Assembly: GCF_009914755.1 (NCBI RefSeq)
Contig: NC_060927.1
Source of the DNA: the human T2T-CHM13v2.0 reference genome, Homo sapiens
Length of the DNA stretch: 64,000 nt
Direction: 5' to 3' (one strand)
The notes beneath the pieces were generated by a model. It was not told the origin of the DNA, made no database searches, and worked only from the letters and a program-made list of their open reading frames with translations. The position numbers and the translations under genes are program-made. Each line of letters opens with the position of its first letter. The first letter of the stretch is position 1. Shown piece after piece: positions 12,253-64,000 of this stretch.

Positions 12253-12442
12253 GAGTGGAGTGAAATGGAATGGAACGGAGTGGATTGGACTGGAATGGAA
12301 TTCCATGGAATGGAATGCAATGGAACGGAATGGAATGGAACGGAGTGGAGTGAAATGGAATGGAACGGAGTGGATTGGACTGGAATGGAATTCCATGGAA
12401 TGGAATGCAATGGAACGGAATGGAATGGAACGGAGTGGAGTG
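12253..12442 (+). repeat. Exact 90-bp tandem duplication carrying the GGAATTCCATGGAA palindrome
   Basis: GAGTGGAGTGAAATGGAATGGAACGGAGTGGATTGGACTGGAATGGAATTCCATGGAATGGAATGCAATGGAACGGAATGGAATGGAACG occurs twice with no mismatch seen. TTCCA is at 12301 and 12391. Confidence 0.92.
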
Positions 12443-15500: not shown

Positions 15501-18500
15501 AATGAAATGGAGTGGAGTGCAATGAATTGGTATGGAATGGAATGGAGTGTAGGGGAATTGAATGGAATGGAGTGGAATGGAAAGGAATGGAATGGGGAGG
15601 ACGGGAGTGGGGTGGAATGGAATGGAATGAAGTGAAGTGGAAAGGAATGGAACTGAATGGAGAGGAGTGGAATGGAACGGAGTGGAATGGATTTGAGTGG
15701 AATGGAATGTAGTGGATTGGAATGGAATGGAGTGGAATGGAGTGCAGTGGAATGGAAGGGAACAGAGTGGAGTGGAAAGGAATTGAAAGGAACGGAATGA
15801 AGTGGAATGGAACGGAGTGGAAAAGAATGGAACCGAACAATGTGGAATTGAAAGGAGTGGAGTGGAATGGAATGGAATGGAAAGAAGGGGAGTAGAGAGC
15901 AAATGAATGGAGTGGAATGGAGTGGAGTCGAATGGAATGGAACGGAATGGAGTAGAAAGGAATTGAATGGAATGGAACGAATTGAATGGAATAGAAAGTA
16001 AAGGAATCGAATGGAGAGGAGTGGATTGGAGAGGAATGGAATGGAGTGGAATGCAGTGGAGTGGAAAGGATTGGAATGAAGTGTAGTGGAATGGAATGGA
16101 AGGGAGCAGAATGGAATGGAGTGTAGTGGAATCAAATGGAATGAAGAACAATGGAATGGAATGGAATGGAATGAAATGGAGTGGAATGGAGTGGAGTGGA
16201 ATGGAATCAGATGGAGTAGAGTGAAATGGAAAGGAATTCCATGGAATCGAATGGAATGGAATAGACTGGTGAAGAATGGATTGGAATGGAAACGAATGAA
16301 ATGCAACAGAATGGACAGGAGTGGAATGGAAAGGAATGGAGTGGAATGGAATGGAGTGGAATGGAATGGACTGGAGTGGAAAGGAATGGAGTGGAATGGA
16401 ATGGAGTGGAATGGAATGGACTGGAGTGGAAAGGAATGGAGTGGAATGGAATGGAGTGGAATTGAATGGAGTGGAGTGGAATGGAATGGAGTAGAATCTA
16501 GAGCAGTGGAATGGAATTGAACGGTGTAGAATAGAATGGAATGGAATTTTGTGGAATGGAACGGAGTGAAATGGAATGGAGTGGAGTGTATTGGAGTGGA
16601 GTGCAATGCAATGGAATGAAGTGGAATGGAATGGAGTGGAATAAAATGGAATGGAGTGTAGTGGAATTCAAAGGAGTGTAATGGAATGGAGTAGAATGGA
16701 ATGGAATGGAATTAAGTGTAGTTGAATGGAATGGAATGGAGTGTAATGGAATGGAGTGGAATGGAAAGGAAAGAAGGGTAGTGCAATAGAACAGACTGGA
16801 ATGGAGTGGAGTGCAAAGAAATGGAACGGAGTGGAGCGGAATGGAATGGAAAGGAATGGATTGGAAAGAAATGGAATGAGGTGAAGTGCAATGGAATGGA
16901 ATGGAATGGAGTGGAATAGAATGAAATGGAATGGAGTGTGGTGGAGTGGAATGGAATTGAGTGGAGTTGAAAAGATTTGAATGTAATGGAATGGAGTGGA
17001 GTGGAGCGGTGTCGCGTTGCATATAATGGAATGGAGTGGAGTGATATGGAATGGAATTCAATACAATGGAATGGAATGGAACTTAGTGGAATGGAATTGA
17101 GTGGAATGGAACGGAAGGGAGTATAGTGGAATGGAATTGAACGCAAACGAACGGAAAGGAATGGAATGGAATGGGATGGAAAGGAATGAAATAGAATGGA
17201 GTGTAATGGAGTTGCGTGGAATGGAATGGTATGGAGTTGCGTGGAATGGAATGCAATTTTATGGAATGGAAAGGAATGGAATGGAAAGGAATTGAAAGGA
17301 GTGGAGTGGAGTAGAGTAGAGTGGAATCGAATGAAATGGAATGGAATGGAGTGTAATTTAACATAAAGGAGGGGAGACAAGTGGCATGGAATACAGTGGA
17401 ATGGCATGGAATGGAGTGGAGTAGAATGGAATGGAAGGGAATGGAGTGGAGTGGAATCGTATGGAGTGTAATGGAATGGAATGGAGTGGAATGGAATGGA
17501 GTTGAGCGGAGCGGAATCGAGTAGAGGGGAATGGAGTAGAGTGGAATAGAATGGAATGGTGTGTGGTGGAATGGAATGGAATGGAATGGAATGGAATGGA
17601 GTCGAGTGCAATGGAGTGGTTTCGAATGGAAAGGAGTGTACTGGAATGGAATGGAAGGTAATGGAGTGTAGTGGGGAAGAATGGAGCGGAGTGGAGTGGA
17701 ATGTAATGGAGTGGAATGGAGTGGAGTGGAATGGAATGGAACGGATTTGAGTTTAATGGAATGGAAGGAAATGGAATGGAATCGACTTGGGAGAAGGGGA
17801 ATATGGTGGAATGGAATGGAGTTGAGTGGAATGGAATGGTGTGGAATGGAATGGAATGGAGTGGAGCGGAATGGAATGCAGTGTATTAGAGTGGAGTGGA
17901 ATGGAATGGAACGGATTTGAGTGGAATGGAATGGAGTGGAGGTATATAAATTGGTATGCAATGGAATGGAATGGAATGGAATGGAAAGGAATGGAATGGA
18001 ATGGAATGGAGGTTAATGGAGTGGAATGGAATGGAATGGAATGGAATGGAATGGAATGGATTGGAGTGAAATGGAATGGAATGGGAAGGAGTGCAGTTGA
18101 ATGGAGTGGAGTGGAGTGGAAAGGAATGGAATGGAATGGAATGGAGGGGACGGAATGGAATGTAACGGAATGTAGAAGAGGGGAGTGGAGTGGAATGTAA
18201 TGGAGTGGAATGTAGTGGAGAGTAGTGATTTGAATGGAATGGGGTGGAATGGAATGGAATGCAGTCGAAAGGAATGGAGTGGAGTGGAATGGCATGGAAT
18301 GGAGTAGAATGAAATGGATTAGAATGGAATGGAGTGGAATGGAATGGAACGTATTGTGGAGGAATGGAATGGAATGAAATGGAGTGGAATGGAGTGAAAT
18401 GGAGTGGAATGGTGTGGAGTGGAATGGAATAGATTGGAGTGGATTGGTGTGGAATGGAGTTGAATGGAGTAGAGTGGAATGGAATGGAGTGGAATGGAGT

Positions 18501-36327: not shown

Positions 36328-36505
36328 AATGGAATGGAGTGGAACGGAATGGAGTGGAATTGATTGGAGTGTAGTGGAGTGGAATGGAAAGGAATGAAAT
36401 GGAGTGGAGCGTAATGGAATGGAGTGGAACGGAATGGAGTGGAATTGATTGGAGTGTAGTGGAGTGGAATGGAAAGGAATGAAATGGAGTGGAGCGTAAT
36501 GGAAT
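36328..36505 (+). repeat. Exact 85-bp tandem duplication
   Basis: AATGGAATGGAGTGGAACGGAATGGAGTGGAATTGATTGGAGTGTAGTGGAGTGGAATGGAAAGGAATGAAATGGAGTGGAGCGT occurs twice, with TGATT at 36361 and 36446. Confidence 0.9.
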
Positions 36506-45500: not shown

Positions 45501-48500
45501 GAGTGGGGTCGACTGGAATGGAATGGAACGGAGTGGAGTGGAATGGAATTGAATTTAATGGAAAGGAATGGAATGGAATGGAATGGCATGGAATTTAATG
45601 CAGTGGAATGGAATGGAATGCAGTGGAGTGGATTGGAATGGAATGGAGTGGAATGGAATGGAGTGCATTGGAATGGAATGGAATTGACTGGAATTGAGTG
45701 GAGGGGAATGGAGTGCAATGGAGTGAGGTGGAAAGGAATAGAATTCAATGCAATGGAATGGAATGGTATGGAACGGAATGGAAAGGAACAGGATGGAATG
45801 GAAGGGAGTGGTGTGGGGTGGAATGGAATTGAGTGGAGTGGAATGGAATGGAATGGAATGGAGTGGAGTGGAATGGAATGGAATGGAATGGAATGGAATG
45901 GAGTGGAGTGGAATGGAGTGGAGTGAAGTGGAGTGGAATGGAATGGAATGGAATGGATTGGAATGGAAAGGAGTGGAGTGGAGAGGAATGGAATGGGGTG
46001 AAATGGAGTGGAGTGGAAAGGAACGGAGTGGAGTGCATTGCAATGAAATGGAGTGGAATGGAGTGTAGTGGAACGGAATGGAACGGTGTGGAATGCAGTG
46101 GAATGGAATGGAGTAGAATTGTACAGAGTGGAGTGCAGTGCAATGGATTGGAATGGAAAGGAATGGAATGAAAGGAATTGGAATGAAATGGAAAAGAATG
46201 GATTGGAGATGAATGGAATGGAGTGGGACGGAATGGAGTGGAAAGGAATGGAATTGAGTGGAGTGGAATAGAATGGAGTGAAATGAGGTAGAGTGGAATG
46301 GAATGGAATGGAATGGAGTGGAGTGGAATGGAATGGAATTGAATGGAATGAAGTGGAGTGGAATGGAATGGAAAGGATTGGAATGGAATGGAATGGAATG
46401 GAACGGAGAAGAGTGGAGTGGAGTGGAATGCAAGGAAAGGGTGTGAAGTGGAATGGAATGGAATGCAATGGAAGGGAATGGAATAGAATGGAGTGGATTT
46501 GAATGGAGTCGAGAGGAATGAAATGGATTGGAATGTAATGGAATGGAATGGAGAGGATTTCAAAGGAATGGAATGGAGTGGATTTCAATGGAATGTAATG
46601 GAATGTAGTGGAATGGAGTGGACTGGAGTGCAGTGGAATGGAATATTGTGGAGTGGAGTGGAGGGGAATGGAGTGGAAAGGAATGGAGTGGAATGGAGTG
46701 GAATAGATTGGATTGGAGTGGAATGGAAAGGAATAGAATGGAAACGAATGGAATGGAATGGAATGCAGAAGAGAGAAATGGAGTGGAATGGATTGGAGTG
46801 GAATGTAGTGGAGTGGTGTGGATTGGAATGGAATGTAGTGGATTGGAATGGAAACGAGTGGAAACGAATGGAATGAAATGGAAAGGAATGGAGTGGGGTG
46901 GAGTGGAATGGATTTGAGTGGAATGTAGTTGAGTGGAGTGGATAGGAGTGGAATGTAATTGAGTGGAGGGGATAGGAATGGAATGTCGTGGAATGGAATG
47001 GAATGGAGTGGCATAGAATGAAATGGAATGGAATGGAATGGAGAGGGTTGGAATGGACTGGAACTGAGTGGAGTGGTATAGAATGGAAAGGAATGCAGTG
47101 GAGGGCATTGGAGTGGAGTGGGGTCGAGTGAAATAGAATGGAATGGAGAGAAATTGAATGGATTTGACTGGAATGGAGTGGAAAAAGGTGGAGTGGAATG
47201 GAATGGAGAGTAATAGAAAGGAGTGTAATGGATTGGATTGGAGTGGAGGTGAATGGAAAGGAGTGGAATGTAGTGGAGCGGAATGGAGTGGAATGGAATG
47301 GAATGGAGTGGAGTGAAATGGAATGGATTGGAAAGGAGTGGAGTGGAAAGGAATGGAGTGGAACGGAATGGAATGGAATGGATTGGAGTGGAGTGGAGTA
47401 TAATGGATTGGAGTGGAATGGAGTGGAGCGTAATGGGATGGAAAGGTATGGAGTGGAGTGGAATGGAATGGAATGGAATGGAATGTAACGGAGTGGAATG
47501 GAATGGAATGGAATGTAACGGAGTGGAATGGAAAGGAGTGGAGTGGAGTGGAATAGAATAAAGTGGAATGGAGTGGAGTGGAGTGGAATGGAGTGGTATG
47601 GAATGGAGTGGAATGGAATGGCATGAATGGAATGGAATGGGATAGAATGGAAGGGAAAAGAATGGAATGGAATGGTATGGAATGGAGCGGAGTGGAATGG
47701 AACGGAATGCAATGGAAAGTACTAGAATGGAGTGGAGTTTAGTGGAATGGAATGGAGTCAAGTGGAGTGGAAGGGAATGAATTGGAATGGAGTACAGTGG
47801 AATGGACTTGACTGGAGTGGAATGGAACATAATGGAATGTAATGATATGGAATGGTGAGGAAGGGATTGAATTGGAATGGAATGGAGTGCAATGTAGTGG
47901 AGTGGAGTTGATTGGAATGGAATGTAGAACAACAGAATGGAAAGGAGTGGATTACAAAGGAATTGAATGGAATGGAATGGCATTTAAAGAAATGGAATGG
48001 AATGCAATGGAGTGGGGTGGAGGGGAATGGAATTGAGTTGAGTGGAGTAGAATGGAATGGAATGGAATAGAATATAGTGGAGTGGAGTGGATTGAGGTCG
48101 ACTGGATAGTAAATGAAAGGAATGGAATGGAATGGAACGGAGTGGAATGGAGTGGAGTGGAATGCAATGGAATGTTGTAGAATGGAATGGAGTGGAGTGG
48201 AGTGGAGTGGAGTTGAATGGAAAGTAGTGGAATTGCATGGAATGGAATGGAATGGAGTAGAGTGGAATGCAGTGGAGTAGAGAGAAACAGAATGGAATGG
48301 AAAGGATTGGAGGGGAGTGAAGTGGAATGGAAAGGAGTGGAATGTATTGGAGTGAAGTGGATTGAAAAGGAATGTAGAGAAGTTGAATGGAATATGGTGG
48401 AATGCAATTGAAAGAAATGGAATGGAAAGGAATGAAAAGGAATGGAATGGAATTGATTGAAGTGGAGTGGAATGGAATTGAGTGGAGTGGAATGGAATGG

Positions 48501-51500
48501 AATGGAATGGAGTGTAGTGGAGTGGAGTGGGGTCGAGTGGAATTGAATTGAAAGTAATGGAATGTAATATAATGGAATGGAATGGAATGAATTAGAAAGG
48601 AATGGAATAGAATGCGATGGAGGGGAGTGGAATGGAATGGATCGGAAAGGATTGGAATGGAATGGAGTGGAATCGAATGGCATGGTATAGATTGGAATGG
48701 AATGGAGTGGAATGGAGTGGGGTGGAATGGAATGGAGTGGAATGGACTGGAGTGGAGTGGAATGCAATGGAGTGGAATGGAGTGGAGTGGAACAGAATGG
48801 AATTGATCCCTGTGGAAAGAAAGTAATGGAATGTATTGTAGTGGAATGGAGAGGAATGGAGTGGAGTGCAATGGAATGGAGAGAAATGGAATGGAGTGGA
48901 ATGGAGTTAAGTGGAGTGCAATGGAATGGAGTGGAACGGAGTTGAATGGAGTGGAATGGAAAGAAATGGAATAGAATGGAATGAAGTGGAGTGGTGTTGG
49001 GTCGAGTGGAAAGGAATGGAATGGAATGGAATGGATAGTAACGGAATGGAATGGAATGGAAATGAGGGGAGTGGAGTGAAATGGAAGGCAGTGGAATGGA
49101 GTGGAGATAAATGGAGTGGAATGGAATGAGGAGGTGTTGAACGAACTGGATTGGGATTGAATAGAGTAGAAAGGAATGGATTGGAGTGGACTGGAATGCA
49201 ATGGAGTGGAATGGAATAGAGTGGAATGGCATGGAATGGAATAGAGTGGAATGTAATGGAACGGAGTGTAGTGGAATGGAGCAGAAAGGAATGAAAGAGA
49301 ATCAAACAGAAAGGAATGTAACTAAGTGGAGTGGAGTGGAATGGAATTTAGTGGAGTGGAATGGAATAAAATGGATTGGAATGCAATGGCGTGAAGTGGA
49401 GTTGTGTGGAGTGGAAGGTAATAGACCAGAATGGATCGGAATGGAATAGAGTGGAATGGAATGTAGTGTAATGGAATGGCATGGAACAGATTGGAATGGA
49501 ATCGAGTGGAATAGAATTGAGTGGAATGAAGTGGAGTGCAGTGGAATGGAGAGAGTTCGAGTGGATGGGAATGGAATGGAATGGAGGGAAAAGGAATGGA
49601 GTGGAGTGGAATGGAATGGAATGGAGAGGAGTGGTGTGGTGTGAAATGGAATGGAATGAAGTGGAATGGAATGAAATTGAATGGAATTCAATGGAATGGA
49701 ATGGAATGGAGAGGATGGGAGTTTAGTGGAATGGAATGGAGTGGAATGAGTGGAGTGGAATGGAATGGAATGGAATTGAGTGGAGTGGAACTGAATGGAT
49801 TTGATTGGAATGGAACGGAACGGACGGGAGTGGAATGGATTTGAGTGGTGTGAAGTGGAAATGAATGGTATGGAATGGAGCAGAATGTAGTGGAGTGGAG
49901 TGGAATGGAATAGAGTGGACAAAAGTTGAATGGAACAGAAAGGAATGGAATGGAATGGAATTGAGTGGAGCGCAATGGAATGGAATGGAATGGAATGGAA
50001 TGGAATGGAATGGTGTGGAGTGGAATGGAATGCAATGGAATGCAGTGGAATGGAATGGAATGGATTGGAGTGAAATGGAATGGAGTGGAGTGGAACAGAA
50101 TGGAGGGCAGTGAAGTGGAAATTAAAGGAATGGAATGGAATGGAAAGGAATGGAATGGAATGGAGTGGAGTTGAATGGAATGGAGTGGTGTGAAATGAAA
50201 AGGAATGGAATGGAATGGAATGGAATGGAATGGAATGGAGTGGAATGCAGTGGAGTGGAGTGGAGTGGACAGGAATGGAGTGGAATAGAGTGGTATGTAA
50301 AAGAATGGATTGGAATAGAGTGGAACAGAATGGAATGGAATGGAAGGGAATGGAATATAGTGGAACGTAATGGAATCAAATGGAATGTAGTGGAGTAGAG
50401 TAGAATGGAATGGAATTTAGAGGAGTGGCATGGAATGGAAAGGAATGCAATGGAATGGAAACAAGTGGAATGGGATGGAATGAAATGGAATGGAGTGGAG
50501 ATGTATGGAGTGGACGGGAGAGGATTGGAGTGGAGAGGAATGGAGTGGAATCGTGTGGAAAGAAGTGGAATAGAATGGAATCGATTGGAGTGGCATGGAA
50601 TGCAATTTAGTGGAATGGAATAGAGTGGAGTGGATTGTAATGGACTGGAAAGGAATGGAGAGAAATGCAGTGGAGTGTAATGGAATGGAATGGAGTGAAA
50701 TGGCATGGAGTGGAATTGAGGGGAGTTTAATGGAATGGAATGGAGTGGAGTTGAAAGGAGTGGAGTGTAGTGGAATCGATTGCACTGGAATGGAATGGAA
50801 TCGAATTCAGTTGAATGGAATGGAATGAAATGGAATGGAATGGAATGGAATAGAGAGGAATGAAATGGAGAGGAGAGGAGTGGAATGGAATGGAGTGGAA
50901 TGGATTTGAGTGGAATGTAGTGGAATGGAATGGAGTGGAATGGAGTGGATTGGAATGGATTGGAATGGACTGAATGCAAGGGGCATGGGTGGAATGGAAT
51001 GAAATGGAATGGAGTGGAGTGGAATGGAATGGAATGGAGTGTAATCACGTGTCGTGGGTGGAATGCAATGAAATGGAATGGAGTGGAGTGGGGTGCAGTG
51101 GAATGCAATGGAGCGGAGTGGTGTGAAGTGGAGTGGAGTGGAGTGAAGTGTGGTGGAGTGGAGTGGAATGGATTAAAATGGAATGGAATGATGTGGAGTG
51201 GGATGGAATGGAGTGGAATGAAATGGAATGGAATGGAATGGAGTGGAATGGAATGGACAGGAATAGAATGGAGTGGAATGTTATGTGATGGAATGGAATG
51301 GAGTGTATTTGAATGGAAGGGAATGGAATGCAATGGAGTGGCGGTGTGTGGAGTGGTGTATAGGGGAGTGGAATGGAATGGAATGGATTGGAGTGGAATG
51401 GAATAGAGTGTAATGGAATTAAGTGGAATGGAATGGAATGAAAAGGAGAGGAGGGGAATGGAATGGAATGGAAAGGAATGGTGGGGAATGGAATGGATTT

Positions 51501-54500
51501 GAAAGGAACAAAATGTAATGGAGAGGAGTGGAATCGAGTGAAGTGGAATGGAATGTGTGTAATGGAGTGGAAAAGAATGTAATGGAAAGGAGTGGAGTGG
51601 AGACAATGGAGTGGACTGGAGTGGAATGGAGTTGAGTGGAATGGACAGCAATCAAGTGGAATGGAATGGAGAGGAATCGAGTGGAATGGAGTGGAATTGA
51701 ATGGAATCGATTGGAGTGGAATGGAATGGAGTGGAGTTGAATGGAATGGAGGGGAGTGGAATGGAATGGACTGGAATGGAACGGAACATAAAGAAATGGA
51801 TTGGAGTGGAATGGAATGGAATGGAGTGGAATGGAGTGCAGTGGAATGGAGTGGAAAGGAGTGGAGTGGAATGGACAGCAGGGGAGTGGGGTGGAATCGT
51901 ATGCAGTGGAAAGTAGTTGAGTGGAGTTGATTGGAATGGAATGTAGTGGAATGTGATGGAATGGAGTGGAATGGAATGGAATGGAAGGGACTGGAATCTA
52001 ATGCAATGGAATGGAATGGAATGGAGAGGTGTGGAGTGGAATGGAATTGAGTGGACTGGACGAGAATGGAATGGAATGGAATTGATTGTAGTGGAGTGGG
52101 CTCTACTGGAATGGAATGGAGTGGAGTAGAATGTAATTGAATTCAATGGAAAGGAAAGGAATGGAATGGAATGGAATGGAATGGAATGGAATGGAATGGA
52201 ATGGAATGCAAAGGAATGGAATGGAATGGAGTGGAGTGGATTGTAATGGAATGCACTGGAGTGGATTGGAATTGAATGGAGTGGAATGGAATGGAATGGG
52301 ACGGAATGGAATGGATAAGAATAGAGTGGAGTGGAATGGAAAGGAATGGAGTGGAGTGAAATGTAATGGAATTCAATTGATAGGAATAGAATGGTATTGA
52401 ACGGAATGGAAAGGAACGGAATGGAGTGGTGTGGAGTGGAATGGAATTGAGTGGAGTGGAGTGGAATGGAATGGAATGGAATGGAATGGAGTGGAGTGGA
52501 GTGGAGTGAAGTGGAGTGGAATGGAATGCAGTGGAAGGGAATAGAGTGGAATGGAACTGAGTGGAGTGGAGAGGAATGGAATGGATTGGAGTGGAGTACA
52601 GTGGAATGGAACGGAGTGGAGTGGAGGGGAATAGAATGGAGTGGAATGGAGTGGAGTGGAACAAAATGGAACAGTGTGGAGTGGAGTGGATTGGAAAGAA
52701 GTGGAATGGAATGGAGTGGAATTGTATGGAGTGGAGTGCAGTGGAGTGGAATGGATTAGAATCAAATGGAAAGGAATGGATTGGAATAGAATGGAATGGA
52801 GTGGGAAGGTATGGAGTGGAATGGAATGGAGTGGAGTGGAGTGGAATAAAATGGAGTGAAATGCAGTAGAGCGGAATGGAATGGATTGGAGTGGAGTAGA
52901 ATGGAATTGAATGGAATGGAATTCAATGGAATGAAGTGGAGTGCATTGGAATGGAATGGAATGGAAGGGAATGAAATGGAGTGGAGTGGAATGGAGTGGA
53001 ATGCAATGAAAGGCAGTGAAGTGTAATGGAATGGAATGAAATGGAACGGAATTGAATGGAATGGAGTGGAGTTGAATGGAGTCGAGAGCAATGAAATGGA
53101 CTGGAATGAAACGGAAAGGGATAGAATGGAATGGAATGGAGTGGATTTCAATGGAATGTAATGGAATGGAGTGGAGAGGAGTGGAGAGGAGTGCAGTGGA
53201 ATGGAATGATGTCTATTGGAGTGGAGGGGAATGGAGTGGATAGGAATGGAGTGGAGTGGAGTGGAATGGAGTGGAGTGGAATGGAAAAGAATACATTGGA
53301 TACGAATGGAATAGAATGGAATGCAGAAGATAGGAGTGGAGTGGAATGGATCGGAGTGGAATAAAGTGGAGTGCAGTGGATTGGAATGGAATGTAGTGGA
53401 ATGGAATGGAAAAGAGAGGAATGGAATGGAATGGAATGGAAAGGAATGGAGTCAGGTGAAGTGGAATGGAATGGAGAGGAATGTATTTGATTGGAGTCGA
53501 TTGGAATGGAATGTAGTGGAAAGAATGGAATGGAGTGGCATAGAATGAAATGGAATGGAATGGAATGGAGTGCAGTGGAGTGGATTGGAATTGAGTGGAG
53601 TGGTATAGAATGGAATGGAATGGAGTGGACGGCAGTGGAGTGGAGTGGGGTCGAGTGGAATAGAATGGAATGGAGAGGAATTGAATGGATTTAACTGGAA
53701 TGGAGTGGAATAATGTGCATTTGAATGGAATGGAGAGGAATGGATAGGAGTGCAATGCACTGGAATGGAGTGGGGTAGTATGAAATGGAGTGGAATGGAG
53801 TGGAGCGGAACGTAATGGAATGGAATGGAGTGGAGTGGAATGGAATGCAGGGGAACGGAGTGGAGTGGAATGGAAAGGAGTGGAATGGAATGGAATGGAA
53901 TGGAATGGATTGGAGTGGAGTGGAGTGGAGTGGAATGTAATGGAGAAGAATGGAATGGAGGGTAATGGAATGGAAAGGTGTGGAATGGAGTGGAATGGAA
54001 TGGAGTGGAATGGAAAGGAGTGGAATGGAATGAATTGGAATGGAGTGGAGTGGAGTGGAATGGAATTGGTTGGAGTGGAGTGGTATGGAATGGAGTGGTA
54101 TGGAATGGAGTGGAATGGAATGGAAGGGAAGGGAATGGAATGGAATGGAGCATAGTTGAATGGAATGGAATGCAATGGAATGGACTGGAATGCAGTGGAG
54201 TGTAGTAGAATGGAATGGAGTCGAGTGGAGTGGAATGGAACGGATTTGAATGGAGTGGAGTGTAACGGAGTTGAGTGGAGTGGAATGGAATGGAATGGAA
54301 TGATATGGCATGGTGAGGAATGGAGTGGATTGGAATGTAATGGAGTAAAATGAAGTGAAGTGGAGTGGATTGGAATGGAATGTAGAGGAACAGAACGGAA
54401 AGGAGTGTATTGGAATGGAATGGAACGGAATGGAATGGAATATAAAGAAATGGAATGGAGTGGAATGGAGTGGGGTGGAGGGGAATGGAATTGAGTGGAG

Positions 54501-57500
54501 TGGAATATAATGGAATGGAATGGAATATAGGAGAGTGGAGTGGACTGGGGTAGGCTGGATGGTAATTGAAAGGAATGGAATGAAATGGAATGGAACGGAG
54601 TGGAATGGAGTGGAGTGGAATGTAATGGAATGAAGTGGAATGGAATGGAGTGGAGTGGAGTGGAGTGGAATGTAATGGAATGAAGTGGAATGGAATGGAG
54701 TGGAGTGGAGTGGAGTGGTGAGAAACGAAATGGAATGGAATGGAGTGGAGGGGAGTGAAGTGGATTGGAAAAGAGTGGAATGTAGTGAAGTGAAGTGGAT
54801 TTGAAAGGAATGTAGTTGAGTTAAAGAGAATGCGGTGGAATGCAATGGAAAAGAATGGAATGGAATGAAAAGGAATGGAATGGAATGGAGTGAAGTGGAG
54901 TGGAATGGAACTGAGCGGAGTGGAATGGAATGGAATGGAATGGAATGGAATGGAAAGGAATGGAATGGAGGATAGTGGAGTGGAGTGGGGTCGAGTGGAA
55001 TGGAATTGAACGGAATGGAATGCAATTTAAAGGAATGGAAAGGAATAGAATTCTATGGAGTTGAGTGGAATGGAATGGACTGGAAACGATTGGAAAGGAA
55101 TGGAGTGGAGTGGAATGGCTTGGAATGGATTGGAATAGAATGGATTGGAATGGAGTGGAGTGGAATGGAATGGAGAGGAATGGATTGAAGTGGAGTGGAA
55201 TGCAATGGAGTGGAATGGAGAGGAGTGGAACGGAATGGATTGGATTCCTATGGAAAGGAATGAAATTGAATGCATTGGAGTGGAATGGAGAGGAATGGAG
55301 TGGAGTGCAAGGGAAAGCAGAGGAATGAAATTGAATGGAATGGAGTTGAGTGGAGTGGAATATATTGGAGTCGAATGGAGTTTAGTGGAGTGGAATGGAA
55401 TGGAGTTGAATGGAGTTGAATGGGATGGAATGGAATGGAATGGAATGGAATGGAATGGAATGGAATGCAGTCGAGTGGAGTTGGGTCGTGTGGATAGGAA
55501 TGGAATGGAATGAAATTGATAGGAATGGAATGGAATAGAATGGAAATAAGGGGAGTGGAGTGAAATGGAATGCAGTGGAATGGAGTGGAGAGAAACGGAA
55601 TGGAATGGAATGAGGTGGTGTGGAATGAAATGGAGTGGAATTGAGTAGAGTGGAATGGAATGGATTGGAGTGGAATGGAATGAAATGGAGTGGAATGGAA
55701 TAGAGTGCAATGGGATGAAAGGAATAGCGTTGAATGTATTGGAACGGAGTGTAGTTGAATGGAACACAATGGAATGAAATGAAATGAAATAGAAAGGAAT
55801 GGAACTAAGTGTAGTGGAGTGAAATGGAATTGAGTGGACTAGAATGGAATAAAATGGAATGGAATGCAATGGAATGGAGTGGAGTGGAGTGGAAGGGAAT
55901 GGACCGGAATGGAACAGAATGGAATGGAGTGGAATGGAATGGCATGGAATGGATTGGAATGGAATGGACTGGAATGAAATTGTGTGGAGTGGAGTGGAGT
56001 GGAGTGGATAGGGGTCGAGTGGATGGGAATGGAATTGAATGGAATGGATTGGAGCTTAAAGGAGTGGAATGGAGTGGAATGGAATGCAATGGAGTGGTGT
56101 GGATTGGAGTGCAAAGCAATGTAATGTAATGTAATGGAGAGGAGTGGTGTGGAGTGTAATGGAATGGAGAGTAGAGGAATGCAATGGAATGGAATGGAAT
56201 TCAATGGAATGGAATGGAATGGAACTCAATGGAATAGTATGGAATGGAGAGGAAGGGAGTTCAGTGGAAAGGAATGGAGTGGAATGAGTGGAGGGGAATG
56301 GAACGGAATGGAATGTAGTGCAGTGGAGTGGAATGGTGTGGAGTGGAGAGGAGTTGAATGGAAGGGAATGGAGAGGAGTGGAGTGGAGTGGAGAGGTGGG
56401 GAGTGGAATGGAAAGGAATGCAGTGGAATGTAGAGGTATGGAGTAAATTGGAATGGAATGTAGTGGAATGCATAGAAAGGAGTTGAATGAAATGGTGTGG
56501 AATAGAATGAAATGCAAAGAAATGGAATGGAATGGAGGGGGTAGACTGGAATGGAATAAAGTGAAGTGGAAGTTAATGGAATGGAATGGAGTGGAATGGA
56601 GAGGAGAGGAGTCGAGTGGAATGGAATAGAATGGAGTGGAGTGGAATGGAATGGAATTCAATGGAATGGATTGGATTGGAATGGAATGGAATGGAAAGCA
56701 ATGCAATGGAATGGAATGGAATGGAGTACAGTTCAATGGAATGCAACGGAATGGAATGGAATGGAATGGAATGGAATGGAATGGAATGGAATGGAATGGA
56801 GTGGATTGGAATGGAATGAATTGGAGTGGATTGGAATGGAATGGAGTGGAATGGTATGTATTGAAGTGGAATGGAACGGAATGGAATGGAGTGGAATAGA
56901 GTGGAGTGGAATGGAATGGAATAGAGTGGAGTGGAATGGAATGGAATTCATTGGAATGGAATGGAATGTTATGGAATGGTATGGAATGGAACAGAATGGA
57001 ATGGAATTTAGTGGTGTGGAGTGGAAAGCAAATGAGTGGAGTGCAATGGAATGGAATGGAATGGAATGGAATAGAGTGGAGTGGAATGTAATGGAGTGGA
57101 GTTTAGGGGTGTGTAATGGAGTGGAATTGAATGGAGAGCAATATAGTGGAATGCAATGGAGTGGAATGCAGTGGAGAAGAATGGAATGGACTGGTGTGGA
57201 GTGGAGTGGAATGTAACGAAGTGGAATGGAATGGAGTGGAATTGTATGGACTGGAGTGGAGTGGAGTGGAGTGGAATGGAACAGATTGGAATGGAATGGA
57301 ATGAAATTGAATGGAAAGGATTGGTGTGGAATGGAATGGAGTGGGATGGAATGGAGTAGAATGTAATGGAGTGGAGTGGTATAGAATGCAGTGGAACACA
57401 TTGGAGTGGAATCAAATGGAATGGAGTGGAATGGAATGGAATGGAGTGGAATGGAGGGCAATGGAACGGAGTGGAATGGAGAGGAGTGGAATGCAATTGA

Positions 57501-59911
57501 TTGGACTGAAGTTGAATGGAATGGAATGAAATGAAATGGAAGAGAGTGGAATGGAATGCAGTGAAGTTGAAAGGATTCGAATGGAGTGAAATAGAATGCA
57601 ATGTAAAGGAATGGAATGGAATGGAATGGAATGGAGTGGAATGGAATGGAGTGGAATGCAATGGAATGGAGTGGAGTGGAATGGAGCTGAGTGGAGTAGA
57701 GTGGAATGGAATGGAGAGGCGTGGAGTGGAGTGCGGTAGAGTTAGCTGTTATTTAATAGAATGGAATGGAACGGAACAGAGTGGAATGGAGTGGAGTGGA
57801 ACGCAATGTAATGGAGTGGAATGAAATGGAGTGGAGTGGAGTGGAGTGGAATGGAATGTTGTGGAATGGGATGGAATGGAGTGGAATGAAACGGAGTGGA
57901 GTTCAATGGAGTGGAGTGGAGAGAAACGGAATGGAATGAAATGCAGTGGAGGGGAGTGAATTTGAATGGAAAAGAGTGGAATGTGGTGGAGTGAACTGGA
58001 TTGGAATGGAATGTAGTGGAGTTGAATGGAATGGATTGGAATGCAATGGAAAGAAATGGAATGGAATGGAATGAAAAGGAATGGAATGGAAAGAAGTGCA
58101 GTGGAGTGGAATGGAATTGAGTGAAATGGAATGGAAAGGAATGGAATGGAGTGCAGTGGAGTGGAGTGGGGTCGAGTGGAATGGAATTGAACGGAATGGA
58201 ATGGAATTTAATGGAATGGAATGGAAAGGATTGGAATGGAATGGAACAGAATTCTATGGAGTGGAGTCGAATGGAATGGAAAGGAAAGGATTGGAATGGA
58301 AAGGAAAGGAATGGATTTGCCTGGAATGGTTTGGAATGGAATGCAGTGGAACGCATTGGAGTGGAATGGAATGGAGTGGAATGGATTGGAGTGGAGTCTA
58401 ATTCAATGGAGTGGAATGGAGTGGAATGGAATGGATTCCTGTGGAAAGAATATTAATGGAATGGATTGGAGTGGAATGGAGAAGAATGGCGTGGAGTGAA
58501 ATGGAATGGAGAGCAATGGAATTGAGTGGAATGGAGTTAAGTGCTGTGGAATAGATTAGAGTGCAATGGAGCTTAGGGGAGTGCAGTGGAATGGAGTGGA
58601 ATAGATTTGAATGTATTGGAATGAAATGGAATAGAAAGAAATGGAATGGAATGGAAAGAAATGGAATGGAATAGAATGGAATGCTATTGAGTGGAGTGGA
58701 GTTGGTTCGAGTGGATGGGGATGAAATGGAATGAAATGGATAGTAATAGAATAGAATAAAATGGAAATGAGGGGAGTGGAGTGAAATGGAACGCAGTCGA
58801 TTGGAGTGCAGTAGAATGGAATGGAATGGAATGACTTGGTGTGGAATGAAATGGAGTGGAATTGAATGGAGTGGAATGGAATGGATTGGAATGGACTGGA
58901 ATGGATTGAAGTGGAATGGAATAGAGTGGAATGTATTGGAACGGAGTGTATTGGAATGGAACGCAATGGAAAATGATGGAATGAAATAGAAAGGAATGGA
59001 ACTAAGTTTAGTGCATTGGAATGGAGTTGAGTGGATTGGAAAGGAATAAAAGGGAATGGAATGCAATGGAGTGGAGTGGAGTGGAGCGGAAGGGAATGGA
59101 ACGGAATGGAATGGAGTGGAATGGAATGGAGTGGAATGGAATGGCATGGAATGGATTGGAATTGAATGGAGTGGAATGGAATTGACTGGAATGGAATGGA
59201 GTGGAAAGCAATGGAGTGGAGTGGAACGGAGAGGGGTCGAGTAGATGGGAATAGAATGGAATGGAGTGGAGTGGAATAGAGTGGAATGGAGAGGAGTGGT
59301 GTGGAGTGTAATGGAATTGAGTAGAGAGAAATAGAATGGAATGGAATGGAATGCAATGGAATTCAATTGAATTCAATATAATGAAATAGAATGGAGAGGA
59401 TGGGAATTAACTAGAGTGGAATGGAGTGGAATGAGTGGAGTGGAATGGAATGGAATCGAATTAAGCGGGATGTAATGGAATAGAATGCATTGAAATGGAA
59501 TGGATAGGACGGGACTGGAATGGAATTGAGAGGAGAAAAGCAGAATTGAATGGCATTGAATGGAGTGGAATGCAGTGCATTGGGGTGGAGTGGAATGGAA
59601 CGGAATGGAGTGAAGTAGAATGGAACGGAATGCAATGGAATGCAATGGAATGGAATGGAATGGAATGGAATGGAATGGAATGGAATCCAGTGGAGTGGAA
59701 TGGAATAGAATGTAAAGGAATGGAATGGAATGGTGTGGAGTGGAATAGAATGGAAGGGAATGCAGTGGAACGGAATGGAATGCAATGGAATCGAATGGAG
59801 TGGGGTGGAGTGGAATGGAATTAAGTGGACTGGAATATAATGAAATGGAATGGAGTGGAGTGGAGTGGAGACTGGTCGAGTGGAATGGAATGGAATGGAG
59901 TGGAGTGTAAA

Positions 59912-61000
59912 GGAATGGAATTCCATGGAATGGAATTCCATGGAATGGAATTCCATGGAATGGAATGGAATGGAATGGAATGGAATGGAATTCCATGGAA
60001 TGGAATGGAATGGAATGGAATTCCATGGAATGGAATGGAATGGAATGGAATTCCATGGAATGGAATGGAATTCCATGGAATGGAATGGAATGGAATGGAA
60101 TTCCATGGAATGGAATGGAATGGAATGGAATTCCATGGAATGGAATGGAATGGAATGGAATTCCATGGAATGGAATGGAATGGAATGGAATTCCATGGAA
60201 TGGAATGGAATGGAATGGAATTCCATGGAATGGAATGGAATGGAATGGAAATCCATGGAATGGAATGGAATGGAATGGAATGGAATTCCATGGAATGGAA
60301 TGGAATGGAATGGAATGGAATGGAATGGAATGGAATTCCATGGAATGGAATGGAATGGAATGGAATTCCATGGAATGGAATGGAATGGAATGGAATTCCA
60401 TGGAATGGAATGGAATGGAATGGAATGGAATTCCATGGAATGGAATGGAATGGAATGGAATGGAATGGAATTCCATGGAATGGAATGGAATTCCATGGAA
60501 TGGAATGGAATGGAATGGAATGGAATGGAATGGAATGGAATTCCATGGAATGGAATGGAATGGAATGGAATGGAATGGAATTCCATGGAATGGAATGGAA
60601 TTCCATGGAATGGAATGGAATGGAATGGAATTCCATGGAATGGAATGGAATGGAATGGAATGGAATGGAATTCCATGGAATGGAATGGAATGGAATGGAA
60701 TTCCATGGAATGGAATGGAATGGAATGGAATGGAATTCCATGGAATGGAATGGAATGGAATGGAATGGAATGGAATGGAATTCCATGGAATGGAATGGAA
60801 TGGAATGGAATTCCATGGAATGGAATGGAATGGAATGGAATTCCATGGAATGGAATGGAATGGAATGGAATTCCATGGAATGGAATGGAATGGAATGGAA
60901 TGGAATGGAATTCCATGGAATGGAATGGAATGGAATGGAATTCCATGGAATGGAATGGAATGGAATGGAATTCCATGGAATGGAATGGAATGGAATGGAA
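59912..61000. repeat. Homogeneous compound minisatellite [TTCCA(TGGAA)2-9]x34, modal unit 30 bp TTCCA(TGGAA)5
   Basis: About 217 in-register pentamers, all TGGAA or TTCCA except one ATCCA at 60251. The first TTCCA is at 59921 and the last at 60971. Spacings are 15-50 bp, all multiples of 5, and 17 of 33 are 30 bp. There is no GGAGT and no CpG, and both boundaries with the diverged flanks are sharp. Confidence 0.97.
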
Positions 61001-64000
61001 ACGAATCAAATGGAACGAAAAGGAGAGAATGGAATGGAGTGAAGTGGAGTTGAATGGAATTGAGAGGAGTGGAATGGAATGGAATGAAATGGAGTGGAGT
61101 GGAATTAAGTGGTGTCAAGTGAAATGAAATATAACCGAATGGTATGGAATTTAATGGAATTGGATGGAATGGAATGGAATGGAAAGGAATAGAATGCTAT
61201 GGACTGGAGTGAAGTGGAGTGGAATGGACCCGAAAGGAATGGAATGGAATGAAGTGGAATGGAGTGGAATTGATTGGTGCGGAGCAGAAAGCAAAGGAGT
61301 GAAATGGAGAGGAATGGAATGGAAGGGAATAGATTCTTGAGGAATGGAATGAAATGGAATGGATTGGAGTAGAATGGAGTGTAATCGAGTGGAGTGCAAT
61401 GGAAAGGATTGGAATGGAATGGAGTGCAAAGGAGTTCAGTGGAGTGGCATAGATTGGAGTGGAATGGAGTTAATTGGAGTGGAATGGAATGGACTGTAAT
61501 GGAGTTGAATGGAGTGGAATGGAATGGAATGGAATGGAATGGAGTGGAGTGGAGTGCAATCGAGTGTATTGGAATGGAATAGAAGGGAATGGAGGGGAAT
61601 GGAGTGGAATAGAATGGAAATGAGGGGAGTGGAGTGAAATGAAATGGAGTGGAATAGAGTGGATTGGAAAGGAATGTAATGGAATAGTGTGTTGCGAAAT
61701 GAAATGGAGTGGAATGGAATGCAGTGGAATGGAATGGAGTGAAGTGGATTGGAACGGAATGGAGTGGAATTGAATAGATTAGAAAGGAGAGGAACGGAGT
61801 GTAGTGGAGTGGAACTGAATGGAATGGAATGGAATGAAAAGGGAAGGAATGGAATGCAGTGGAGTGGAGTGGAATGGAATTAACGGGAGTGGAATAAAAT
61901 GCAATGGAATGGAAAGCAATGGAGTGGAATGGAGTGGAGTGGAGTGGATGGGAATGGACCAGAATGGAACGGAAATGAATGGAGTGGAATGGAATGCAGA
62001 GGAAAGTAAAGGAATGGAATGGAGTGGAATAGAATGGAGACGAATGTAATGGAATGGAATGGAGTGGAATGGAATGGCGTGGAATGCAATGGAGTTGAAT
62101 GGAGTGGAGTGGAGTGGAGTGGGGTGGAGTGGATTGGAATGGAACGAAACGGAATGGAATGGATTGGAATGGAAACGATTGGAGTGGAATGGAATGGAAT
62201 GGAATGGAGTGGAATGGAATGGATTAGAATGGAATGGATTGGAATGGAGAGGAGGGCTGTGGAGTGGAATAGAATAAATTGGAGTGGAATGGAATGGAAT
62301 GGAATCGAGTGGAGAAGAATGGAGTGGAGTGGAATGCAATGGAATGGAGTGGACTGTAATGGATTGGAATGGAATGGAATGGAAGGGAGTTGAGGGTTGT
62401 GGAGTGGAATAGAATTTATTGGAATTGAATGGAACGGAACGGAATGGAAAGGATTGGAATGGAATGGAATAGAAGGGAGAGGAGTGGAAAGGAATGGTAT
62501 GGAGAGAAATGGAATGGAAGGGAATGGAATGGAACATATTGGAATGGAAAGGAATGGAATGGAATGGAATAGAATGGAATGGAAATGAATGGAATGGAAT
62601 GAAATGCAATAGAATGGAGTGTTAAAGAAGTGATTGAAGTGGAGGGGAACGGAGTGGAATGGAGTGGAATCAAGTGGAATGGAAAAGAATGGAACGGAGT
62701 TTAGTGGAATATTATGGAGTGGAATGGAATCGAGTGGAAAGGAAAGTAGTGGAGTCGAGTGGAACGGAATGGAGTTAAATGGAATAGAGTGCTATGGAAT
62801 GGAATGGTGTGTAGTGGAATGAAATGGAGTGGCATGGAATGGAGTGCAGTGGAATGGAGTGGAGTGCAATGGAATGGAATGCAATGGAATGGAATCGAAT
62901 GGAATGGAATGGGGTGGAGTGAAATTGAATGGAGAGGAATGGAAGGAGTGGAATGGAATGTAGTGTAAAGGTATGTGATGTAACAGTGGAGTGGAATGGA
63001 ATGGAATGGAATGGAATGGAGTGTTGTGCAATGGAATGGAATGGAGTGGAATGGAATGGAATGGAATGGAATGGAATGGAATGGAATGGAAAGGAATGGA
63101 GAGGAATGGAATGGAGAGGAATGGAATGCAATGGAGTGGAATGGAATGGAATCGAGTGGAGTGGAATGGAATGGAGTGGAGTGGAATAGAGTGGAATGGA
63201 ATGGAATGGAGTGCAGGGGATTGAAGTGGAGTACTTTGGAGTCGAATGGAGTCAAAGGTATTAAATGGAATGGAGTGGAGTGGAAGGGGGTGGAGTGGAA
63301 TGGAATGGAATGGAATGGGGTGCAGTGGAATGGAATGGAATTGAGTGGAGTAGAGTGGAGAGGATTGGAGATGAGTGGAGTGGAGTGGAAACGAGTGGAA
63401 TTGAGTACATTTGAATAGAATTAAATGGAATGTAATGGAGTGGAATGGAATGGAGTGGAATGGATTGTAGTGGACTAGAATTTAATAGAGTGGAATGGAT
63501 TGGAGAGAAGTGGAACAGAATGGAATGGAAAGGAATGGAATGGTGTGGAGTGCAATGGAATGGAGTGGAATGTAGTTGAGTTGAGTGGATTGGAATGGAA
63601 TATAGTGGAATTGAATGGTATGGAGTGGTGTATAATGAAAAGGAATAGAATGGAATGGAGTGGGGTTTAGTGGATTGAAATTGAGTGAAGTGGTATAGAA
63701 TGGAATGAAATGGAGTGGAATGCGGAGGCTTCGATTGGAATCGAATGGAAAAGAGAGGAATTGAATGGATTTGACTGGAATGGAGTGGAAAGAAGTGCAG
63801 TGGAATAGAATGAAGAGGAATGGAAAGGAGTGGAATGGATTGGGGTGGAGTGGAGTGGAATGGAGTGGAGAGGAACAGAATGGAATGGAATGGAATGGAG
63901 GGTTGTGGAATGGAATGCAGTGGAACGGAGTGGAGTGGAATGGAATGGAGTGGACTGGAATTGAGAGGAATGGATTGGAGTGGAGAGGAGTGAAATGGAA

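What the first reader, a model, noticed from the sequence alone, without database searches (positions are those of the whole stretch)
59912..61000. Young, almost mutation-free palindromic minisatellite nested in an old diverged HSat3 array
Seen: in the rest of the window, pure GGAAT runs do not appear to exceed about 10-11 units (e.g. near 44861 and 56748). Here about 1.09 kb uses only TGGAA and its exact reverse complement TTCCA, with one substitution (60251). Spacings between inverted pentamers read 15,15,40,30,30,20,30x6,35,50,30,30,35,40,20,50,40,20,30,40,30,35,45,30,30,30,40,30,30. The right flank (about 61010-61340) resembles the paralogous stretch near 58070-58440, which carries no such block. 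Inference: this is a very recent local expansion of a 30-bp unit with pentamer slippage on top, i.e. a new satellite variant caught early, and probably length-polymorphic.
Basis: partly seen in the sequence, partly recalled or inferred. Interest (0 to 1): 0.8.

Follow-up and report, generated by a model that had tools for sequence, protein, structure and literature searches.

The report
Near-perfect palindrome-punctuated HSat3 micro-array
A 1.1-kb stretch of almost error-free GGAAT repeats, punctuated about every 30 bases by one inverted pentamer, sits inside old decayed human satellite 3 on chromosome 3; it is a real but fairly ordinary local satellite turnover event, and the same design occurs on four other chromosomes.

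Summary
Window 59912-60996 (1085 bp) is 217 in-register pentamers: 182 GGAAT, 34 TCCAT and 1 GGAAA (T>A at 60251). Outside the block, pure runs stop at 10 units.

- It is a locally homogenised array of a modal 30-bp unit. The exact TCCAT(GGAAT)5TCCAT 35-mer has 17 hits in CHM13, 16 of them here.
- It is not a new kind of variant. TCCAT-punctuated arrays of 0.3-1.9 kb lie on chr1, chr13, chr21 and chr22. Solitary TCCAT pentamers occur in the same old chr3 array.
- It is not a net expansion. It fills the slot of about 1.1-1.26 kb of ancestral sequence in a roughly 3-kb local repeat.
- "Very recent" is not shown. One substitution in 1085 bp gives 0.02-10 Myr.

Each TCCAT makes two overlapping 12-bp palindromes. 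Neighbouring units can pair and loop out one unit. Two equally common control pentamers almost never form such arrays: 1 and 0 adjacent pairs against 126.

Length polymorphism could not be tested. Interest is modest.

The parts
59912..60996 (+). Homogeneous block: 217 pentamers (182 GGAAT, 34 TCCAT, 1 GGAAA). 34 units of TCCAT(GGAAT)n, modal length 30 bp.
60247..60251 (+). The only off-type pentamer, GGAAA (T>A at 60251). It removes one EcoRI site and one 12-bp palindrome.
59922..59966 (+). Left edge: three TCCAT GGAAT GGAAT motifs, the first two forming complete 15-bp units. The same short unit is seen in the chr1, chr13 and chr21 arrays.
60072..60256 (+). Longest run of equal units: six consecutive 30-bp spacings. 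This is not longer than permutations of the spacing list give (P=0.19).
61002..62094 (+). Right flank, 'X3': a diverged copy (about 77-81%) of local segment X, whose other copies start at 36901, 41714, 48361, 54799 and 58000.
58000..59730 (+). Left flank, 'X2-Y2': collinear with 54799-56790 (offset about -3200) and with 48361-50008 (offset about -9650 to -9720). Paralogy fades over the last ~200-400 bp before the block.
57503..57999 (+). Segment 'W', which directly precedes X in 4 of 4 other copies (47864, 54417, 41307, 36413). It is missing before X3, where the block lies instead.
12297..12398 (+). Two solitary GGAATTCCATGG motifs 90 bp apart (a local 90-bp duplication) in the old array.
16233..16244 (+). 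A third solitary GGAATTCCATGG in the old array.

Best explanation
The block is a real, non-coding, locally homogenised sub-array of human satellite 3.

Origin of the variant (inferred). A rare variant pentamer, TCCAT, is the reverse complement of the GGA core of GGAAT. It arose either by stepwise substitution or by a micro-inversion or template switch, and it was present in the old chr3 array.

Amplification (inferred). One unit, TCCAT(GGAAT)5 of 30 bp, was amplified in place by replication slippage and/or out-of-register sister-chromatid exchange. The new array overwrote about 1.1-1.26 kb of diverged sequence: segments Z and W and the first ~50 bp of X3 in a roughly 3-kb local repeat. The unit length was therefore kept.

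Ongoing turnover (inferred). Continuing 5-bp slippage in the pure GGAAT spacers spreads unit lengths from 15 to 50 bp. Turnover keeps the array almost free of mutations.

Proposed driver. Each TCCAT creates two overlapping 12-bp perfect palindromes, ATGGAATTCCAT and ATTCCATGGAAT. Because the palindrome recurs in every unit, any two neighbouring copies can pair within one strand and loop out exactly one unit. I propose this favours gain and loss of whole units.

What is shown and what is inferred. Shown: the composition, the spacings, near-uniqueness of the exact unit in CHM13, the slot replacement, the predicted single-strand pairing, and the clustering of TCCAT relative to two controls. Inferred: the mutational origin of TCCAT, the slippage/exchange mechanism, the causal role of the palindromes, and the absence of function.
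For: Composition and spacings. Contrast with the surroundings.

Exact 30-bp unit: the 35-mer TCCAT(GGAAT)5TCCAT has 17 hits in the genome, 16 in the block and 1 on chr22.

Flanks are chr3-local paralogues. The top 6 of 6 hits of the right flank fall in X copies and marker words are shared. The flanks match the other TCCAT loci no better than control chr3 segments do: 75-79% against 74-77%.

Slot replacement. X-to-X distances are 3201 bp (54799 to 58000) and 3002 bp (58000 to 61002). W precedes X in 4 of 4 other copies but not X3.

Possible precursors in the old array, in GGAAT-X-GGAAT context: TGAAT 39, TCAAT 8, TCCAT 3.

Folding. 150 nt of the block gives -21.9 kcal/mol on the + strand and -20.8 on the - strand (z -4.5 and -4.2; 0 of 200 shuffles as good). 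The stems are 12 bp, formed between successive palindromes. Diverged HSat3 gives -2.4 and -1.3, and pure (GGAAT)10 gives 0. 66 of the window's 77 perfect 12-bp palindromes lie in the block.

Clustering. There are 126 closely spaced TCCAT pairs genome-wide, against 1 (CACAT) and 0 (TCAGT) for two other 3-step variants. The single-context 20-mers are about equally common: 163, 174 and 119.

Instability of this class. The chr13 and chr21 paralogous arrays show 13 indel events in 1.9 kb. Their flanks show 5 in 3.1 kb and differ by only 4 mismatches in 3007 bp.

Literature. Hyper-local expansion of nested repeats in HSat2,3 is described in passages of 10.1101/2021.07.12.452052.
Against: - Left-flank paralogy is ambiguous over the last ~200-400 bp. 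Pentamer arrays align anywhere at 73-80%. The size of the replaced segment is therefore approximate, and the similar length could be coincidence.
- The order of unit lengths shows no significant structure (permutation P = 0.19 and 0.26), so the amplification history cannot be read from it.
- TCCAT is not enriched among 3-step variants in the old chr3 array (3 of 82). Nothing there argues for a special mutational origin.
- The clustering contrast rests on two controls. The chr13/chr21 arrays are duplicates of each other, and so are the chr1/chr21 arrays, so independent array births may number only three or four.
- The folding model counts Watson-Crick/GT pairs only. It ignores the non-canonical pairing reported for GGAAT/ATGGA repeats (PMC11014236, abstract only).
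- Search counts for repeats are stated by the tool to be lower bounds.
- No read-level or population evidence was available.
Confidence: 0.7

Rival explanations
1. The array is old, possibly shared with other apes, and looks young only because continuing slippage and exchange keep homogenising it. Purity would then measure turnover rate, not age of origin.
For: One substitution in 1085 bp is compatible with up to about 5-10 Myr since the last homogenisation. The block has no CpG, against 9.5 per kb outside it, so it lacks the fastest-mutating sites. Related arrays on chr13 and chr21 show many sub-blocks of different unit variants, which indicates long-running turnover.
Against: The other TCCAT arrays have purities of only 0.55-0.83. 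Long-lived arrays of this type therefore normally do accumulate variant units; the chr3 block has one in 217 pentamers.
Confidence: 0.25
2. The block was copied into chr3 by gene conversion or ectopic exchange from a pre-existing TCCAT-punctuated array on an acrocentric short arm or on chr1.
For: The same architecture exists on chr1, chr13, chr21 and chr22, including 15-bp TCCAT GGAAT GGAAT units like those at the left edge of the block. One exact 30-bp unit occurs on chr22.
Against: No other CHM13 locus has more than 150 bp of pure GGAAT/TCCAT. 16 of 17 exact 35-mers are in the block. The flanks are chr3-local paralogues and match the other loci only at background level. TCCAT seeds already exist in the chr3 array.
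Confidence: 0.1
3. Assembly or polishing artefact: the block is a consensus error or a collapse/expansion in T2T-CHM13.
For: Nothing direct. Simple repeats are error-prone in general, and no reads could be inspected.
Against: By inference, the block is only 1.09 kb and has distinctive, non-identical flanks, so single long reads should span it. Its irregular unit lengths (15-50 bp) and single substitution are not what a collapsed consensus looks like. Similar arrays are assembled at five other sites.
Confidence: 0.03
4. The array is kept by selection as a protein-binding platform, for example for factors that recognise GGAATTCC or TTCN4GAA, or for TEAD on GGAATG.
For: The block adds 33 GGAATTCC cores and 33 TTCnnnnGAA motifs in 1.1 kb. 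HSat3 is reported to act as a TEAD-family binding platform (PMC11526998, passages).
Against: No heat-shock-element geometry is created: 0 GAAnnTTC and 0 TTCnnGAA. There is no full GGGRNWYYCC site (0). GGAATG density is about 137 per kb in the block against 58 per kb outside, which simply reflects purity. The block lies in gene-free heterochromatin (hub annotation). There is no conservation evidence. The binding-site consensuses used here are recalled, not tested.
Confidence: 0.03

Closest known systems
HSat3 nested tandem repeats that 'evolve and expand hyper-locally' (Altemose et al., 10.1101/2021.07.12.452052; passages read)
   Same: A longer period built from GGAAT-derived pentamers, confined to a sub-region of a larger and older HSat3 array. 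No gene or RNA family is involved.
   Different: The period here is very short (30 bp rather than kilobases). Purity is 99.5%. The punctuating pentamer is the inverted core, which gives palindromes. This particular array is not mentioned in the passages I read.
TCCAT-punctuated (GGAAT)n arrays found here on chr13 (5.072 Mb), chr21 (2.052 and 5.91 Mb), chr22 (8.15 Mb) and chr1 (128.71 Mb) of CHM13
   Same: TCCAT followed by a variable number of GGAAT. Unit lengths are 15-60 bp in 5-bp steps. Spans are 0.3-1.9 kb.
   Different: Those arrays carry extra fixed variant pentamers (TAAAT, GGAAC, GGAAA, GAAAT, TCCGT) and have purities of 0.55-0.83. Their flanks are unrelated to the chr3 flanks beyond background.
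Layered expansion model of alpha-satellite arrays (same preprint)
   Same: A new repeat variant arises inside an old array and expands, leaving older diverged repeats on both sides.
   Different: In that model the older repeats are pushed sideways. Here the new array takes the place of old sequence with no net gain in length. The scale is 1 kb, not megabases, and no kinetochore is involved.
Classical hypervariable minisatellites (general knowledge, recalled)
   Same: A unit of 10-100 bp, an array of about 1 kb, and unit-number variation expected.
   Different: The block lies in pericentromeric heterochromatin, is built from satellite pentamers, and has no GC-rich core. Hypervariability is not shown here.

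Membership tests
Human satellite 3 (HSat3) | Tandem array derived from the (GGAAT)n / (CATTC)n pentamer | tested here: met
   TRF finds period 5 with consensus TGGAA over 57037-64000. 182 of 217 pentamers in the block are GGAAT. GGAAT-rich sequence continues 10 kb beyond both window ends.
Human satellite 3 (HSat3) | Assignment to one of the published subfamilies A1-A6 / B1-B5 by enriched 24-mers | tested here: inconclusive
   One published 24-mer per subfamily (Table 1 of PMC4022460) was counted in 84 kb of chr3. There was 1 hit (3A2) and 0 for the other ten. The full k-mer sets in the supplements were not used. That table lists no chr3 localisation.
Minisatellite | Head-to-tail repeat with a unit of about 10-100 bp and an array of about 0.5 kb or more | tested here: met
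   34 units, mean 31.8 bp, mode 30 bp, span 1085 bp.
Minisatellite | Length polymorphism between individuals | not testable with these tools
   No other human haplotypes or reads are held. There is only a proxy: the chr13 and chr21 paralogous arrays differ by 13 indel events in 1.9 kb.
Hyper-local nested tandem repeat within HSat2,3 (Altemose et al.) | A longer periodicity confined to a sub-region of an array whose remainder has other or no such periodicity | tested here: met
   The 30-bp mode occurs only in 59912-60996. The rest of the window shows only weak periodicity of about 3.2 and 6.5 kb.
Large DNA palindrome / inverted repeat | Two long arms in inverted orientation | tested here: not met
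   Only 12-bp palindromes are present: 66 in the block and none of 14 bp. The array as a whole is a direct repeat. 'Palindromic' applies to the punctuation, not to the block.
Heat-shock element (HSF1 site) cluster | Alternating inverted nGAAn units, GAAnnTTC / TTCnnGAA (consensus recalled) | tested here: not met
   0 matches to GAAnnTTC or TTCnnGAA in the block or anywhere in the window. In the block GAA and TTC abut (GAATTC) or lie 4 nt apart.

The most novel reading that the evidence does not exclude
The inverted pentamer makes HSat3 units self-amplifying. It creates a 12-bp palindrome that recurs in every unit, so neighbouring units can pair within one strand and loop out exactly one unit. 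This would raise the rate of whole-unit gain and loss. It would explain why TCCAT is found mostly in short-period arrays at several loci (chr1, chr3, chr13/21, chr22), while equally frequent non-palindromic variants are not. The chr3 block would be the youngest and cleanest example of a recurrent, sequence-driven route to new satellite variants.
Probability: 0.25. Interest if true: 0.55.

Novelty: new variant of a known kind. Interest (0 to 1): 0.32.

Why it matters
In itself the block is one more case of local turnover in a human satellite, with no gene and no sign of function. Its value is as a clean natural experiment. It is a short, fully spannable, nearly mutation-free array with known old flanks. 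It belongs to a small class of palindrome-punctuated pentamer arrays. In such arrays, the rates of unit gain and loss, and the effect of intrastrand pairing on satellite amplification, can be measured directly in pangenome assemblies and pedigrees. It is also a usable marker: EcoRI and NcoI sites are about 48-fold and 400-fold denser in the block than in the surrounding array.

Tried and rejected
- TCCAT at the homologous position in an older paralogue. The copy at 12.3 kb carries TCCAT close to where the right edge of the block would align. That copy does not share the X marker words and is only 76.9% identical, which is background. I dropped the 'pre-existing seed at this exact position' idea.
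- Higher-order pattern in the spacing series. There is none beyond chance (P = 0.19 for the run of six 30s; P = 0.26 for equal neighbours).
- Micro-inversion as the necessary origin of TCCAT. This is not needed. TGAAT (39) and TCAAT (8) could be stepwise intermediates, and TCCAT (3 of 82) is not enriched among 3-step variants.
- Shared flanks with the chr1/13/21/22 arrays. The match is at background level only.
- Subfamily typing by the eleven published 24-mers was uninformative.
- A fuzzy-regex marker scan timed out and was replaced by BLAST.
- Rfam gave 0 matches at gathering score over 58000-63000.
- All six reading frames are open across the block (380-607 codons). This follows trivially from stop-free pentamers and is not evidence of coding.
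- Literature string searches. Four 15-mers containing the motif matched 3 papers, unrelated by title (listing only). The motif strings are absent from the main texts of PMC11305138, PMC11526998 and PMC4022460. Supplements, such as the TRF/k-Seek monomer tables, were not read and could list the 15-bp unit.

Full report
**What is there**

Window 59912-60996 (chr3:95,477,912-95,478,996 of T2T-CHM13) is 1085 bp. It parses without remainder into 217 pentamers in one register: 182 GGAAT, 34 TCCAT and a single GGAAA at 60247-60251.

The surrounding sequence is a period-5 array with 71% matches. Exact GGAAT covers 34% of it, and no pure run exceeds 10 units. GGAAT-rich satellite continues at least 10 kb beyond both ends of the window. 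The next-longest GGAAT|TCCAT run is 50 bp.

**Local context**

The neighbourhood is not featureless.
- A segment I call X has recognisable copies starting at 36901, 41714, 48361, 54799 and 58000 (78.9-87.2% to the 58000 copy).
- Each of the four copies at 36901-54799 and 58000 is directly preceded by a segment W. The W paralogues lie at 36413, 41307, 47864 and 54417, matching 57503-57999.
- The right flank of the block is another X copy, X3, from about 61002. The six best hits of 60997-61496 all lie in X copies at 75.6-80.1%. Longer local alignments give 79.5-80.6% to three X copies. Marker words are shared in the multiple alignment.

The signal is weak, however. In the reverse search X3 scores 253 bits against a background median of 219.

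The left flank is collinear with the 54.8-kb and 48.4-kb copies to about 59430-59730, and then the signal fades.

The X-to-X distance is 3201 bp for 54799 to 58000, and 3002 bp for 58000 to 61002. The second interval contains the block. W and the first ~50 bp of X are missing before X3, and pure repeat lies there instead.

The block therefore stands in the place of roughly 1.1-1.26 kb of ancestral diverged sequence. It is a replacement, not a net insertion. I hold this with moderate confidence. Pentamer arrays align anywhere at 73-80%, so the inference rests on the X and W markers only.

**Genome-wide picture**

The whole CHM13 assembly could be pattern-searched. The tool warns that repeat counts are lower bounds.
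- The exact two-boundary 30-bp unit, TCCAT(GGAAT)5TCCAT, occurs 17 times, 16 in the block and 1 on chr22. No donor array of the same unit exists elsewhere in this genome.

The design is not unique, though. Fetching the other sites showed TCCAT-punctuated (GGAAT)n arrays at:

| Site | Span | TCCAT count |
|---|---|---|
| chr13 5.072 Mb | 1.86 kb | 59 |
| chr21 2.052 Mb (near-identical paralogue of chr13) | 1.90 kb | 59 |
| chr22 8.15 Mb | 0.52 + 0.79 + 1.85 kb | 18 + 22 + 54 |
| chr21 5.91 Mb | 0.62 kb | 34 |
| chr1 128.713 Mb (shares its left junction with the chr21 5.91 Mb array) | 1.15 kb | 45 |

In these arrays unit lengths run from 15 to 60 bp in 5-bp steps. Extra fixed variants are present (TAAAT, GGAAC, GGAAA, GAAAT, TCCGT). 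Purities are 0.55-0.83, against 0.995 for chr3.

A census of closely spaced TCCAT pairs gave 126 hits. The 100 listed fall on chr1 (23), chr3 (28), chr13 (29) and chr21 (20). Another 26 were not listed.

The chr3 flanks match those loci only at background level. Within the window itself, GGAATTCCATGG occurs three more times as solitary pentamers in old sequence: 12297 and 12387, which are copies of a 90-bp local duplication, and 16233.

So 'a new satellite variant' overstates the case. The chr3 block is the purest member of a small existing class, and its seed pentamer was already present in the array.

**Origin of TCCAT**

In 1928 GGAAT-X-GGAAT contexts of the old chr3 array, TCCAT accounts for 3 of the 82 three-step variants, no more than several others. 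TGAAT (39) and TCAAT (8) could be stepwise intermediates. A micro-inversion or template switch is possible, since ATGGAAT inverts to ATTCCAT. It is not required by the data.

**How it probably works**

Each TCCAT creates two overlapping perfect 12-bp palindromes, ATGGAATTCCAT and ATTCCATGGAAT. 66 of the window's 77 perfect 12-bp palindromes lie in the block, and none of 14 bp does.

A palindrome that recurs in every unit is both a direct and an inverted repeat of its neighbours. Folding 150 nt of either strand as DNA pairs successive palindromes into 12-bp stems that loop out the intervening spacer:
- block: -21.9 and -20.8 kcal/mol, z -4.5 and -4.2, with 0 of 200 shuffles as good;
- diverged HSat3: -2.4 and -1.3 kcal/mol;
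- pure (GGAAT)10: 0 kcal/mol.

The model ignores the non-canonical pairing reported for these repeats (PMC11014236, abstract only). Such stems would loop out exactly one unit. This is the geometry expected to favour whole-unit gain or loss during replication. The pure spacers can slip in 5-bp steps. That fits a 30-bp mode with 5-bp-step scatter.

One test was possible. Two other three-step variants, CACAT and TCAGT, are each as frequent as TCCAT in the chr3 array. They are similarly frequent genome-wide in the same 20-mer context (174 and 119 against 163). They form 1 and 0 closely spaced pairs, against 126 for TCCAT.

This is suggestive but not decisive. There are only two controls. The chr13/chr21 arrays are duplicates of each other, and so are the chr1/chr21 arrays.

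**Age and stability**

One substitution in 1085 bp, at an assumed (recalled) 0.5-1.0e-9 per site per year, gives a point estimate of 0.9-1.8 Myr since the last homogenisation. The 95% range is 0.02-10 Myr. The block has no CpG, against 9.5 per kb outside it. 'Young relative to its flanks' is safe. 'Very recent' is not shown, and an older array kept clean by turnover cannot be excluded.

As a proxy for instability I compared the chr13 and chr21 paralogues. Their flanks differ by 4 mismatches in 3007 bp and 5 indels. The 1.9-kb arrays differ by 11 mismatches and 13 indel events, about four times more indels per kb. Length polymorphism of the purer chr3 block is therefore likely, but it is untested.

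**Function**

I see no evidence of any.
- There is no Rfam match.
- All six frames are open only because the pentamers lack stop codons.
- No heat-shock-element geometry is created (0 GAAnnTTC or TTCnnGAA).
- The block does add 33 GGAATTCC cores, 33 TTCN4GAA motifs, 33 EcoRI sites and 34 NcoI sites.

**Relation to what is known**

Hyper-local expansion of nested repeats in HSat2,3, and the emergence of new variants inside old arrays, are described by Altemose et al. (10.1101/2021.07.12.452052; passages). Table 1 of Altemose et al. 2014 lists no chr3 HSat3 (PMC4022460). Subfamily typing with its eleven 24-mers was uninformative.

I found no mention of the TCCAT-punctuated motif. String searches returned three papers unrelated by title, and the main texts of three HSat3 papers have no occurrence. 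Supplements were not read.

**Verdict**

This is a real, non-coding, locally homogenised HSat3 micro-array. It is a new variant of a known kind and of modest interest. Its main value is as a clean system for measuring satellite turnover and for testing whether palindromic punctuation promotes amplification.

**What remains open**

Read support, variation among human haplotypes and presence in apes could not be examined with the tools held.

Noticed in passing
window 59355-59380: A small quasi-palindromic cluster, GGAAT TCAAT TGAAT TCAAT, lies 540 bp left of the block. It contains the window's only perfect 14-bp palindrome (AATTCAATTGAATT at 59360). TCAAT is one substitution away from TCCAT. 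Related 12-bp palindromes ATTGAATTCAAT also occur at 43059 and 52136.
   Followed up: partly
window 36400-62100: The old array has a weak nested periodicity. X copies lie at 36901, 41714, 48361, 54799, 58000 and 61002, spaced 4.8, 6.6, 6.4, 3.2 and 3.0 kb apart. Copy-to-copy identity is only 78-87%.
   Followed up: partly
L001 (chr13:5,070,500-5,075,500) and L002 (chr21:2,050,200-2,055,200): These are near-identical segmental-duplicate copies (4 mismatches in 3007 flank bp). Their TCCAT arrays have already diverged by 13 indel events, and every pure insertion or deletion is a multiple of 5 bp.
   Followed up: yes
L007 6700-7900 (chr1:128.713 Mb) and L004 reverse strand 7150-7780 (chr21:5.91 Mb): The two arrays share the same left junction and the same TCCAT GGAAC GGAAA GGAAA / TCCAT GGAAT GGAAT unit types. 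The chr1 copy also has a TCCGT variant, a CpG-creating change of TCCAT, fixed in 18 pentamers.
   Followed up: partly
contig 24, 27.79-27.89 Mb (not fetched): The control word GGAATGGAATCACATGGAAT recurs on contig 24 at a very regular spacing of about 2.75 kb. This looks like one marker per unit of a kilobase-scale nested repeat.
   Followed up: no
window 59912-60996: The block is a CpG-free island (0 CpG in 1085 bp) within satellite that has 9.5 CpG per kb. It therefore cannot carry CpG methylation, unlike its surroundings.
   Followed up: no
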